Below the pieces are notes generated by a model. That model did no database searches. It had not been told where the DNA came from and saw only the letters and a program-made list of their open reading frames with translations. DNA of 11,791 nt from Amoebidium appalachense (Eukaryota > Protista > Ichthyosporea): the NCBI GenBank assembly GCA_963693365.1, contig CAVNZM010000083.1, positions 1 to 11,791 on the forward strand, in the 5' to 3' direction. Both the position numbers and the translations under genes were made by a program. Shown here piece by piece: positions 6,935-11,791 of the stretch (position 1 is its first letter; every line of letters starts with the position of its first letter).

Positions 6935-7005
6935 TAAGGGGCGCGGCACCCCGTGAATGGTGACGTCACAAGTGACGTCACATTCACGCGGTCCCGCACC
7001 CCTTA
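6935..7005. repeat. 71-bp inverted repeat (hairpin) with two GTGACGTCAC palindromes; possible TA-flanked MITE or cis element
   Basis: Left arm TAAGGGGCGCGGCACCCCGTGAATGGTGACGTCAC versus reverse complement of the right arm TAAGGGGTGCGGGACCGCGTGAATGTGACGTCAC: 3 mismatches and 1 indel, AA loop at 6970-6971, TA at both ends. Confidence 0.9.
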
Positions 7006-7090
7006 GGATATGGGATATGTGAATATGAGATATGTGATATCTGTGTACACATATCGCGATATGGGATATATGTGATATGGGTGGATATAT
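7006..7090. repeat. degenerate GATAT(G) short tandem array
   Basis: GGATATGGGATATGTGAATATGAGATATGTGATATC...GATATGGGATATATGTGATATGG, with a period of about 7 bp. Confidence 0.85.
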
Positions 7091-7099
7091 GTACATGAG

Positions 7100-7520
7100 C
7101 ACGTGCACACACTGTGTGTGTGTGTGTGTGTGTAAAACACGTGCAGAGCACGTGGTTTTAATTAAATGATTAAACAATTAAAGAGAGAGAGAGGGCGTGT
7201 CACGTGTACGCGTACGTGTACGCGTACATGTGGTGCGTACATGTACACAAGTGCGGATCAAAGGAATGCGAAGGTTTGCGCAAGGCGTCCAATGGGAATT
7301 CGAATTCTGAATTCCATGTACAAGGCGTCCAATGGTATTACGGATGCGCAGGGCGGCCAATGATAATTCGGCTCAAAAAAGCAAATTGCCGCACAAGGCG
7401 TCCAATCGGAATCTAGACTGGCACATGTGGTTCTAGGTGTCCAATGAGGGCACAGGGAACAGGGATTACGGTCCTCATTGGCCAGAAACGCACCCTGCAT
7501 CCTACCGCCGTGTACATAAA
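7100..7520 (+). promoter_or_regulatory. putative Pol II promoter/enhancer of the 7632 ORF
   Basis: CACGTG at 7100, 7138, 7149 and 7201; ACGCGT at 7208 and 7220; CCAAT at 7289, 7329, 7357, 7402 and 7441, and reversed at 7477 (three within an identical CAAGGCGTCCAAT); TATA-like TACATAAA at 7513-7520. Confidence 0.65.
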
Positions 7521-7631
7521 CAGCCGCACACAGGCAACATCTCACCAACCAAACATGAGCCAGACACTCAGCAGTCACAGTCGAGGTGCACACCACAGTA
7601 ACGTTCACCACACCCCCCAAGCAACAGCAAA

Positions 7632-9183: not shown

Positions 9184-9736
9184 TCGTTAAAAATTTCATA
9201 GATTTTCGTTAGAGCCTTTTTGGCACACACACACACACACACACACACACATGCACACACATGCACACACACACACACACACACACACACACACACACAC
9301 ACGTGCAGGCACACGTGTGCAATGCACCATAGTAGTCTTCAACTTGTGCTCTGTTTTTTTTCCTTGGATCTTTTTGCCGTCGGTTTTCTTTGTAGAAAAA
9401 AAAAAAACGTGAAAATAAAGGGCTCCGCCCAATGCATCCACAGATCACAAAGTTTTTTTATTTTTTATCGTTAAAATCTTCATAGATTTTTGTTAGAGTG
9501 TTTTGGCACACACACAAGCACACACATGCACACACATGCACACACACACGCACACGTGCAGGCACACGTGTGCAATGCACCATGGTAGTCTTCAGCTTGT
9601 GCTCTGTTTTTTTCTTGGAACTTTCGTAAAAAAACAAAAGTTTATTTTTGCCGTCGGTTCAATTCTTTGTATAAAAGAAGAAGAAAAAAAACGTGAAAAT
9701 AAAGGGCACTGCCCACTATGTATACACAAATCACAA
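9184..9736. repeat. diverged ~270-bp tandem duplication, each copy with a (CA)n tract (9184-9450 and 9468-9736)
   Basis: Shared TCGTTAAAA..TTCATAGATTTT.GTTAGAG..TTTTGGCACAC(CA)n CACGTGCAGGCACACGTGTGCAATGCACCAT.GTAGTCTTCA.CTTGTGCTCTG...AAACGTGAAAATAAAGGGC...ATCACAA. Confidence 0.93.
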
Positions 9737-9838
9737 CGGTGTCTATGTTAATGAGGCCATGGCATGCTCAAACTTTAAGGTACTTTACTAAAAATTGAAA
9801 ATGGCAAAGTTTAGGGCACAGCCCCCCTATCCTGTGCA

Positions 9839-10948
9839 CTAGCCCATGTAGCCATGGTTCACAGTCTTGAGGGGCGGTGCCGCTGAGGTACGGAGTAAGT
9901 TAGGCACCCGGGTCCTACCGTAGAAGTAGGGGGCACCGACCGTCATGATGTTGTTGTTGTTGTTGTAGGGGGTGTTGCTGTTGGTGCTGCTGCTGCGGAG
10001 GGGGGCAAGGTTTTCCTTCTCCTTGGGGGCAATGTCGATGAACGTGCCGGACTTGCGCCGTGATGGTGCCTCCTTGTGGATGTTTTTCTTGATCAGCCCT
10101 GCAAACACAATCTTCTCACCTGCACCATACATACGCTCATTCGCAACCCCACGCAGCAATGCCTGCATGTCATGGAGGACATCCATGGCGACCCCTTTGA
10201 AGAGGGGCGTGGACTTCAACTTGGCTGCCTTTGCAGTGGCCACCATGGTCTGCAGGAAGCCAGCAACAACACGAGCCAGGTGGCGGGCCACCTCTCTCTC
10301 CCTGTGGGGAGTGAGTTCTGCCTTGCACATCCCGACGATGGGCTCCCAGTTGGCCTCTATCTCCTCCAGGTACCTCTGCATGTAGTTGCCAACCAACTGA
10401 GGGTCTGTCTCTACCTTGTGCCTAGTGGATCTCTCATGCTCTGTGAACTGCGGTAGGAGGATGTCTACCACAGCAGCAGCCACCCCCTTGAGCATGAGGG
10501 CGTTGCGGCACGCGAGTGTTGCCAAAAGCGACTTGCCGTGCAGTTCAGCCAGTTCTGCAGGCTCAGAGATGGTACCACGCACCAGCATCTCAGGGAGCCA
10601 TGCCCCATCAAAGTCATCTAGACCCGTGAAGCGTTTTTGGAAGTAGACTTCGCCCCCTGCATCATAGCCAGCGAAGAAGTCACCTTTCTTGGCGGAGAGG
10701 AGGAAGGATGCTGCGTTGGCGGAAACACTGGGCTGTGCTGCATACCCCTCAGCAAGCGTGCGGTAGGATGCGTAGAAGGGTTGAAGCAGAACAGTGTCAA
10801 GATCCAAATCTTTGAGATGCCAGGAGAAGGTGCGGCCAGGAGGAGGCCTGCGGGCTGGCACAGAAATGGCTGCTGCGGCGGCAGCAAGAACATCAGCATC
10901 GTCTAGATCTAGAGGGGGCAGGAAGGAGAGGTCTGCCATGGTTTCCAA
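9839..10948 (-). CDS. intronless hypothetical protein, 369 aa (acidic N-terminus, helical core, basic/Asn-rich tail with a KEN box)
   Basis: Uninterrupted 1110-bp ORF with protein-like composition, an in-frame (AAC)n poly-Asn, an in-frame stop just upstream of the ATG and CCAAT motifs upstream. No family recognised. Confidence 0.85.
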   Translation of the reverse strand: METMADLSFLPPLDLDDADVLAAAAAAISVPARRPPPGRTFSWHLKDLDLDTVLLQPFYASYRTLAEGYAAQPSVSANAASFLLSAKKGDFFAGYDAGGEVYFQKRFTGLDDFDGAWLPEMLVRGTISEPAELAELHGKSLLATLACRNALMLKGVAAAVVDILLPQFTEHERSTRHKVETDPQLVGNYMQRYLEEIEANWEPIVGMCKAELTPHREREVARHLARVVAGFLQTMVATAKAAKLKSTPLFKGVAMDVLHDMQALLRGVANERMYGAGEKIVFAGLIKKNIHKEAPSRRKSGTFIDIAPKEKENLAPLRSSSTNSNTPYNNNNNIMTVGAPYFYGRTRVPNLLRTSAAPPLKTVNHGYMG

Positions 10949-11224
10949 AGTTCGCTGCTTGCAAAAAGACCAGGCTAGAGTGGCTTAGAATATAAGAAAA
11001 AGTGTTTGAAGAAGGAACGTTTGCAGGTGGCTTTTGTGCCCTCCGGTGCACACACGCTACCGTGCTCCAAAATTCGGTGACTCCTGTTGCCCTAGGCGTC
11101 CAATAGGAGCGCAGGGGAGTCGCCAATGGAATGCAAGTCAACAAATTCTACAAAATTTGATTGGCCGCTCGCACCGCCCGCCAACGGTTTTTCCCTGCAC
11201 ACTTACCATGAACGGAAGGTTCCA
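10949..11224 (-). promoter_or_regulatory. compact intergenic region / putative promoter of the 369-aa ORF
   Basis: CTAGGCGTCCAAT at 11092-11104, CCAAT at 11123-11127, reverse GCGGCCAAT at 11160-11168 and CCAACGGTT at 11181-11189. Confidence 0.55.
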
Positions 11225-11791
11225 TTAGAGGATGCCGCGTCCCGATACGTTTGGCGACCTGGCTGGCGGCCAGACGTAGGGCTTACCGCCGACAAGCACC
11301 TGCGCACCGCCCCCTCCACCCCCTCTCCACTCGTAGCTGTTTCCCGTGCGTGTGCCTGCAGCATTCAAGTTATAAGGACCATATCCCAACGCATCCTGGG
11401 TGTTGTGCAGCAGGTAGTTGCCCGCATCCCTCGTGCCATTCCTCAGGGTCTTCCACGCACTGAATGCACCATTCTGCGCGCCCTGCCCTGCACGCTGCGT
11501 GCCCTGCATGGCAGCATCGCCTGTGGCACGCGCTACCCCCTTGAGGCCCTTGAACACCGTCCCCCCCGCCTCCCCCGCCTTCCCTGCAGTGTAGGTGGCA
11601 GCATCCGCAGCCTTGTTGTACATGTAGTTGCCCACCCCCCTCGCAATGTCCCCCTTGTGCTTCCATGCATAGTACCCCCCTGCCCCCAAGGCAGCACCGC
11701 CCGCCAGGGCCCCCACCCACTTGGCTACCTCTGAGGCCTTGTTTGGCCGGTTCTGCACGTAGATGACACGCGTGTTGCCGCTCCTGCCTTG
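11225..11791 (-). CDS. 5'-truncated Gly/Ala-rich protein with a glycine-zipper hydrophobic segment (putative membrane/virion protein)
   Basis: The frame is open to the window edge (QGRSGNTRVIYVQNRPNK...). WVGALAGGAALGAGGYYAW is followed by KHK and then amphipathic-looking Ala/Gly/Lys helices; TAA at 11227-11225. Confidence 0.75.
   Translation of the reverse strand, partial: QGRSGNTRVIYVQNRPNKASEVAKWVGALAGGAALGAGGYYAWKHKGDIARGVGNYMYNKAADAATYTAGKAGEAGGTVFKGLKGVARATGDAAMQGTQRAGQGAQNGAFSAWKTLRNGTRDAGNYLLHNTQDALGYGPYNLNAAGTRTGNSYEWRGGGGGGAQVLVGGKPYVWPPARSPNVSGRGIL

What the first reader, a model, noticed from the sequence alone, without database searches (positions are those of the whole stretch)
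6935..11791. Cluster of intronless orphan genes: candidate endogenous nuclear DNA virus or large cargo element
Seen: three uninterrupted ORFs with no family I recognise, two of them only 276 bp apart and co-oriented, with shared upstream motifs, set in microsatellite- and transposon-rich eukaryotic DNA where another gene relic appears spliced. Inference: a candidate DNA-binding protein with an NLS-like tail, an orphan helical protein and a glycine-zipper membrane protein, under CCAAT/TATA/AATAAA-type signals, fit a nucleus-replicating dsDNA virus (Polinton-like, mirusvirus-like, herpes- or nudi-like) or a giant transposon. No hallmark gene (capsid, packaging ATPase, PolB, integrase) lies in this window, so the class is open.
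Basis: partly seen in the sequence, partly recalled or inferred. Interest (0 to 1): 0.8.

Follow-up and report, generated by a model that had tools for sequence, protein, structure and literature searches.

The report
Repeated orphan genes, likely viral
Three intron-free genes with no known relatives sit in a eukaryote's repeat-rich DNA; two of them also exist as a second, diverged copy in the same order, so they are likely part of a repeated, probably virus-derived element whose family cannot be named from this window.

Summary
The three ORFs are real: A 7632-8477 (+, 281 aa), B 10939-9839 (-, 366 aa), C 11791-11225 (-, 188 aa, cut by the window edge). They share high GC3, strong CpG loss at codon junctions and CCAAT-box promoters. 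None has a sequence homologue in any search run; only A was searched against 1.84 billion representatives. New here: two public runs hold a second, colinear, diverged B-C block (86% alike in C). There 17 of 22 usable differences in C are synonymous and B's promoter core is kept. Depths hint at about ten copies of each version (weak). ESM features place A beside viral clusters related to T7/poxvirus-I3-type ssDNA-binding proteins, but recognition was low and direct profile tests were not significant. No capsid, ATPase, polymerase or integrase is in the window. Best reading: part of a multicopy, probably viral element transcribed by host RNA polymerase II (0.5). Rivals: non-viral cargo repeat, host gene family, retroposed ORF A. 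A's link to B-C is untested.

The parts
6935..7005 (.). 71-bp imperfect palindrome holding two TGACGTCA words; candidate origin, element end or regulatory hairpin (function inferred)
   Evidence: Folds at -29.3 kcal/mol, z -8.6, 0 of 200 shuffles as good; self-inverted in blastn; TGACGTCA at 6961 and 6973
7276..7481 (+). Cluster of CCAAT boxes upstream of ORF A (five on +, one reversed), three inside GGCGTCCAAT
   Evidence: (family D18)
7513..7520 (+). TATA-like word upstream of ORF A
   Evidence: promoter role inferred
7632..8477 (+). ORF A, 281 aa, intronless, acidic C-tail; possible T7 gp2.5 / poxvirus I3-like OB-fold ssDNA-binding protein (predicted, weak)
   Evidence: ESM hits 0.93/0.92/0.91 to virus-dominated clusters, named clusters Pox_I3, DUF5871, DUF2738; 6 acidic and 0 basic residues in the last 25; profile tests not significant
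8601..8640 (+). AATAAA, then 16 A's about 10 nt downstream, then a 10-nt word repeated at 7109-7118 (possible poly(A) tail and target-site duplication)
   Evidence: 5 of 1322 control starts give a match of 10 nt
8926..9736 (.). Spacer between convergent A and B: CA microsatellite and a roughly 280-bp tandem duplication, with AATAAA for B at 9641-9646 on the minus strand
9839..10939 (-). ORF B, 366 aa, intronless orphan; predicted four long helices (residues 138-266) and a basic, low-confidence tail
   Evidence: blocks at residues 59-72 and 140-154 are kept in the second copy
10947..11001 (-). Promoter core of B with TATA-like word, conserved in the second copy (6 of 55 letters differ) while B's 5' coding part diverges
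   Evidence: tables 5 and 8
11095..11164 (.). CCAAT boxes upstream of B, including one GGCGTCCAAT
11225..11791 (-). ORF C, 188 aa seen (start beyond the window), basic (pI 10.2), G/A-rich, GxxxG helix and amphipathic helices; candidate membrane or particle protein (inferred)
   Evidence: 17 of 22 usable differences to the second copy are synonymous

Best explanation
The window holds three intronless orphan genes, and B-C also exists as a diverged colinear second copy; they are likely a piece of a multicopy, virus-derived double-stranded DNA element that would be transcribed in the nucleus by host RNA polymerase II. Shown: the ORFs, their shared codon and CpG pattern, the CCAAT/TATA/AATAAA words, the second B-C copy, purifying selection on C and conservation of B's promoter core. 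Inferred: host NF-Y and TBP would drive the promoters (factor names recalled). ORF A would be a T7 gp2.5 / poxvirus I3-type OB-fold protein that coats single-stranded DNA during the element's replication and recruits partners through its acidic tail. The 71-bp palindrome might be an origin or end. B would be a nuclear helical-bundle protein. C would be a small membrane or particle protein. Capsid, packaging ATPase and polymerase or integrase genes would lie outside the window, most likely to the right.
For: Second copy: record 4 of run X1 (2162 nt) matches B, the B promoter and C in order; run X7 shows the same joints. It differs at 54 of 386 letters in C. 17 of 22 usable listed differences are synonymous against 0.25 expected, p 4e-7. 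Depth of the window type and of the second type is about ten times that of a third variant in both runs (X1 23-26 and 20.5 vs 2; X7 about 400-480 and 380-415 vs 44). X1 covers the stretch at that depth although it has only 2.6 million letters of contigs; this is a hint of several near-identical copies, not a count. ORF A: 27 of 30 ESM hits are unnamed clusters, the top three 47-86% viral with 190-202 of 256 features shared. The three named clusters carry Pox_I3 (12%), DUF5871 (11%) and DUF2738 (10%). DUF5871 and DUF2738 hit the same giant-virus proteins (19 and 6 of 20 members). I3L is an OB-fold SSB like T7's (PMC11410667 passages). T7-like SSBs seem virus-specific (PMC4889955 passages), and even nucleus-dependent ariadnaviruses keep one. 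A, B and C share CpG loss at codon junctions (26 vs 46, 19 vs 52, 12 vs 28 expected), unlike the retroelement-like ORF at 4089-3418 (29 vs 32). Endogenous virus genes are typically intron-poor in intron-rich hosts (PMC11244446 passages).
Against: No hallmark gene is in the window and no sequence homologue of any ORF was found. ESM recognition for A was 1627, below the 2300 mark, so the score is weak evidence; 4-10% of shuffled proteins reach 0.9. Profile tests of A against giant-virus DUF5871/DUF2738 proteins failed. hhalign gave probability 0.3 and 0.2; local HMM was matched by 104 of 500 shuffles. Glocal scores were matched by 5 of 150 shuffles with one weighting and by 22, 17 and 29 of 200 with three other profiles. 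Gene density of 0.62/kb with microsatellite spacers is below the 0.9-1.1/kb quoted for nucleocytoviricots. Reads were laid only on 9700-11791, so A's copy number and its link to B-C are untested. A has a poly(A)-and-direct-repeat pattern that fits retroposition. The tool warns that contig depth is no copy number.
Confidence: 0.5

Rival explanations
1. The block is cargo of a non-viral giant DNA repeat or transposon (Plavaka-flanked, tyrosine-recombinase or Starship-like), copied as a unit without a capsid.
For: Amoebidium holds tandem clusters of repeated intron-poor genes up to 50 kb flanked by Plavaka transposases (PMC11244446 passages). Low gene density and microsatellite spacers fit. A multicopy colinear block fits equally well.
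Against: No transposase or recombinase was found in the window. A's only lead is viral.
Confidence: 0.2
2. The ORFs are lineage-specific host genes; B-C was duplicated as a segment, and C is a host LEA-like or membrane protein with G/A-rich amphipathic helices.
For: Host-type CCAAT/TATA/AATAAA signals; high GC3; CpG loss could come from gene-body methylation (recalled knowledge); purifying selection on C; amphipathic helices in C, moment about 0.53; low density.
Against: Three adjacent intronless genes with no homologue found in any search, in DNA where another relic looks spliced; depth hints at several near-identical copies of two subfamilies; ESM viral neighbours for A; no LEA Pfam hit.
Confidence: 0.18
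3. ORF A is not part of the B-C unit but a separately retroposed copy, perhaps of a viral transcript, inserted as 7119-8631 with a poly(A) tail and a 10-nt target-site duplication.
For: AATAAA followed about 10 nt later by 16 A's, then a 10-nt word that also stands at 7109-7118; 5 of 1322 control starts match that well.
Against: Post hoc test with four offsets; the word is partly microsatellite-like; four A-runs of 12 or more occur in the window. The insert would include the CCAAT promoter, which processed copies usually lack (recalled knowledge). A shares the GGCGTCCAAT motif and CpG pattern with B.
Confidence: 0.12

Closest known systems
Endogenous Polinton-like viruses and adintoviruses of protists (PMC12220804, PMC11244446; passages seen)
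   Same: Repeated, intron-poor gene blocks in eukaryotic genomes, with several diverged subfamilies in one genome.
   Different: No capsid, ATPase, pPolB, integrase or terminal repeats seen here; low gene density; no sequence match in IMG/VR.
Nucleus-dependent Nucleocytoviricota relatives: mriyaviruses (10.1101/2024.02.29.582850, passages) and 'Ariadnavirales' (10.64898/2026.08.29.747986, first quarter of the text and passages)
   Same: They carry a diverged T7-like OB-fold SSB, have lost most transcription genes and include host-associated forms.
   Different: SSB identity of A is unproven; no VLTF, HUH nuclease or capsid gene in the window; gene density here is lower.
T7 gp2.5 / poxvirus I3-like viral SSBs (Pfam Pox_I3; DUF2738 and DUF5871 as this type is recalled, not shown here)
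   Same: ESM feature neighbours; beta-rich predicted elements and an acidic C-tail.
   Different: No significant HMM or profile match; model pLDDT 33, so the fold is untested.
Plavaka-flanked giant repeats of Amoebidium (PMC11244446, passages)
   Same: Repeated clusters of intron-poor genes.
   Different: No Plavaka transposase or tyrosine recombinase seen in the window.

Membership tests
Polinton-like viruses / adintoviruses | Double jelly-roll major capsid protein and A32-like packaging ATPase | tested here: inconclusive
   None among the window's ORFs, but the element runs off the window and no genome is held.
Polinton-like viruses / adintoviruses | Terminal inverted repeats with target-site duplication; integrase or pPolB | not testable with these tools
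   Element ends are unknown; the 25 longest inverted repeats shown were all microsatellite pairs.
Polinton-like viruses / adintoviruses | Several related copies per host genome | tested here: met
   A colinear diverged second B-C copy and a third variant in runs X1 and X7; ORF A not tested.
Nucleocytoviricota incl. mriyaviruses and ariadnaviruses | Core genes (MCP, A32 ATPase, VLTF3) | tested here: inconclusive
   Not among the window's ORFs; flanks unavailable.
Mirusviricota / herpes-like viruses | HK97 capsid, terminase, portal | tested here: inconclusive
   Not in the window; flanks unavailable. Many mirusviruses are intron-rich (PMC12768974 passages), so lack of introns does not point to them.
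T7 gp2.5 / I3-like SSB | OB-fold | tested here: inconclusive
   Single-sequence model pLDDT 32.8; Foldseek and VIA searches gave nothing meaningful; ESM lead only.
T7 gp2.5 / I3-like SSB | Significant profile match to known members | tested here: not met
   Pfam none at E<=10; hhalign probability 0.3 and 0.2; local HMM 104 of 500 shuffles, glocal 5 of 150 and 17-29 of 200.
T7 gp2.5 / I3-like SSB | Acidic C-terminal tail | tested here: met
   6 D/E and 0 K/R in the last 25 residues; a weak feature.
T7 gp2.5 / I3-like SSB | Binds single-stranded DNA | not testable with these tools
   Needs a binding assay.
Giant cargo transposons (Plavaka, Starship) | Transposase or tyrosine recombinase at the element end | tested here: inconclusive
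   None in the scanned ORFs; ends unknown.

The most novel reading that the evidence does not exclude
A so far unsampled lineage of nucleus-replicating double-stranded DNA viruses, endogenous in several copies and at least two subfamilies, with fully host-like multi-CCAAT promoters, microsatellite spacers, a palindromic origin and an SSB too diverged to be found among 1.84 billion protein representatives.
Probability: 0.2. Interest if true: 0.75.

Novelty: new member of a known kind. Interest (0 to 1): 0.5.

Why it matters
Endogenous DNA viruses of eukaryotes are found mostly through capsid and ATPase profiles. An intact, selected, multicopy gene block with no detectable relative would mark a lineage those screens miss. 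It also gives ready handles (two subfamilies, a conserved promoter core, a testable SSB) for finding the whole element. If it is host DNA or plain transposon cargo, it is an ordinary lineage-specific duplication.

Tried and rejected
No genome is held. Family and homologue searches gave nothing. Pfam: 0 families for A, B, C at E<=1. PHROGs: only E>0.1. Word-seeded search of 5.8 billion proteins: none for B, A (near lengths) or C (longer lengths only). phmmer of A against 1.84 billion representatives: 0 (B and C were not searched there). PDB sequences: none significant. IMG/VR for A, B, C, metagenomes for A and B, prokaryote genomes for A, phage records for A and exact look-up of 4 proteins: none. 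ESM for B: best 0.77, exportin-like helices, below lead level. Models: B pLDDT 41, A pLDDT 33. Fold searches were uninformative; B's best VIA Z was 11.3 at rmsd 4.6 over 126 residues, tied with generic bundles. A paired GGCGTCCAAT pattern in IMG/VR gave 5 loci, none encoding relatives of A, B or C. To test the SSB idea I gathered giant-virus DUF5871 proteins; DUF2738 searches found 0 of 14 and 0 of 4 records. These profiles did not reach T7 gp2.5 in the PDB either. Rfam gave only sub-threshold microsatellite matches; ARAGORN found 0 genes. No RNA holder was listed. Earlier scan notes: nothing for this place or these sequences; six loose analogues in other genomes were not used. PMC3519460 was not held; PMC11071308 and 10.64898/2026.06.19.733378 passages gave no SSB information. 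Supplements were not read.
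Full report
Observation. The window is eukaryotic, repeat-rich DNA. Three long ORFs lie in the finding: A 7632-8477 (+, 281 aa), B 10939-9839 (-, 366 aa) and C 11791-11225 (-, 188 aa, open at the window edge). The C-to-B gap is 285 bp. ORFs of both sizes A and B arose in 0 of 1000 Markov simulations; one of A's size alone arose in 27 of 1000. GC3 is 0.80, 0.67 and 0.73. 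All three have far fewer CpG at codon junctions than codon shuffles give (26 vs 45.8, 19 vs 52.4, 12 vs 27.7; 0 of 2000 shuffles as low each). The retroelement-like ORF at 4089-3418 does not (29 vs 31.5). GGCGTCCAAT occurs 5 times against a simulated mean of 0.007, with three copies upstream of A and one upstream of B. TATA-like and AATAAA words lie where RNA polymerase II genes would have them. A 71-bp palindrome at 6935-7005 folds at z -8.6.

Relatives in databases. None was found by any sequence search. Only A was searched against the 1.84 billion representatives, and C only against longer proteins in the word-seeded search. No genome is held, so flanks could not be read.

Relatives in sequencing runs. 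20 of 24 listed runs hold part of 9700-11791, 15 of them half its words or more; none is on record as RNA. Four runs were laid on that stretch. X1 and X7 hold the window's version almost unchanged and a second version. Record 4 of X1 (2162 nt) matches, in order, ORF B (10724-10764, plus a shared 42-nt block at 10479-10520), B's promoter core (10947-11001, 6 of 55 letters differ) and ORF C (11168-11332 and 11404-11789, 54 of 386 differ). The rest of B is too diverged to lay at 80%. Of the 40 difference rows shown (36 more were not shown), 25 fall in C's codons; I dropped 3 that sit among single-letter gaps at C's last codons. Of the 22 left, 17 are synonymous against an expected share of 0.25 (p 4e-7; two rows share one codon). 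So C is a real, selected gene, and B's promoter core is better kept than B's 5' coding part. A third variant lies at about a tenth of the depth in both runs (2 vs 20-26; 44 vs about 380-480). X1 covers the stretch at depth 23-26 although its contigs total only 2.6 million letters, against 136 million in X7. Both fit roughly ten near-identical copies of each of two subfamilies, but the tool warns that depth is no copy number and X1's library type is unknown. X17 and X19 cover only parts at low depth.

What the proteins may be. A: ESM features give 0.93, 0.92 and 0.91 to unnamed clusters that are 47%, 67% and 86% viral; the only named clusters carry Pox_I3, DUF5871 and DUF2738 on 10-12% of members. 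Poxvirus I3L is an OB-fold ssDNA-binding protein like T7's, with relatives in other dsDNA virus families (PMC11410667 passages). T7-like SSBs seem specific to viruses and are hard to detect from sequence (PMC4889955 passages). They occur in one mriyavirus family and in ariadnaviruses. DUF5871 and DUF2738 hit the same giant-virus proteins; that these are T7-like SSBs is my recall, and my profiles did not reach gp2.5 in the PDB. A has an acidic tail and a beta-rich, low-confidence model (pLDDT 33). Against this: recognition was 1627, below the tool's mark, and direct tests failed (hhalign 0.3 and 0.2; local HMM 104 of 500 shuffles and glocal 5 of 150; 22, 17 and 29 of 200). The SSB call is a lead, about even odds. 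B: four long helices at residues 138-266, only generic bundle matches, and a loose basic cluster at 284-296. C: pI 10.2, 36% Gly+Ala, a marginal hydrophobic GxxxG helix at residues 22-40 and amphipathic helices, compatible with a membrane or particle protein or a LEA-like host protein.

Mechanism. Shown: intact intronless genes, polymerase II-type signal words, a repeated colinear B-C block under purifying selection. Inferred: the block is part of a larger mobile dsDNA element, probably viral, transcribed by the host in the nucleus; A would coat ssDNA during replication, the palindrome might be an origin or end, and the hallmark genes would lie outside the window. The CpG loss may reflect host methylation, as described for endogenous viruses in Amoebidium (PMC11244446 passages), but host genes can show it too. 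Confidence 0.5.

Rivals. Non-viral cargo repeat (0.2): such clusters of intron-poor repeated genes exist, and density here is only 0.62 genes/kb and 52% coding, below the 0.9-1.1/kb quoted as typical for nucleocytoviricots. Host duplication (0.18). ORF A as a separate retrocopy (0.12): AATAAA, 16 A's about 10 nt later, and a 10-nt direct repeat at 7109 and 8631; 5 of 1322 control starts match as well, but the test was post hoc.

Comparison and novelty. It works most like an endogenous Polinton-like, mriyavirus-like or other nucleus-dependent DNA virus, but no defining gene of any family could be found or excluded, so it is not filed under one. Endogenous DNA viruses of this general kind are well known (PMC12220804 and PMC11244446, passages seen), so the rating is a new member of a known kind. 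The bolder case, an unsampled virus lineage with fully host-like promoters, has probability 0.2. The host is not established: a short intron-like stretch with a branch word and a possible SH2 relic point to different groups. Interest 0.5.

Noticed in passing
window 5963-6253 (+): A 97-residue open frame gives a weak Pfam SH2 hit (E 0.0042, 17.6 bits, cut-off 21); possibly a decayed SH2 exon, which would hint at a holozoan or amoebozoan host, or chance.
   Followed up: partly
window 1310-1530 (+): Short spliced-looking relic whose first exon reads like a histone H3 N-terminal tail (resemblance recalled) and whose second part has an acidic hydrophobic stretch like a SUMO-binding motif (recalled); branch word and AG at 1378-1395.
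   Followed up: partly
window 4089-3418 (-): 223-aa proline/alanine-rich ORF whose end resembles the first ORF of DIRS/Ngaro retrotransposons (recalled; no significant Pfam hit); its 5' part lies in a 630-bp tandem duplication (3852-5119). No CpG loss, unlike A-C.
   Followed up: partly
window 190-290 (-): tRNA-like stretch with A- and B-box-like words by eye, probably a SINE; ARAGORN and Rfam did not call it.
   Followed up: no
window 2292-2658: 113-bp tandem repeat within an AT-richer, CpG-poor stretch.
   Followed up: no
window 8690-8770 (+): An orphan promoter-like cluster (TTGCGTAA, CCAAT, TTACGTAA) downstream of ORF A with no ORF after it; similar bZIP-type words lie upstream of A (factor type recalled).
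   Followed up: no
window 10317: All four laid runs show another letter than the window at this non-synonymous place in ORF B, so the window holds a rare variant or an assembly error.
   Followed up: partly
window 7556-7662 (+): An upstream ATG after the TATA-like word opens a 72-codon-class overlapping frame (7444-7662) out of frame with ORF A; A's true start is not settled.
   Followed up: no
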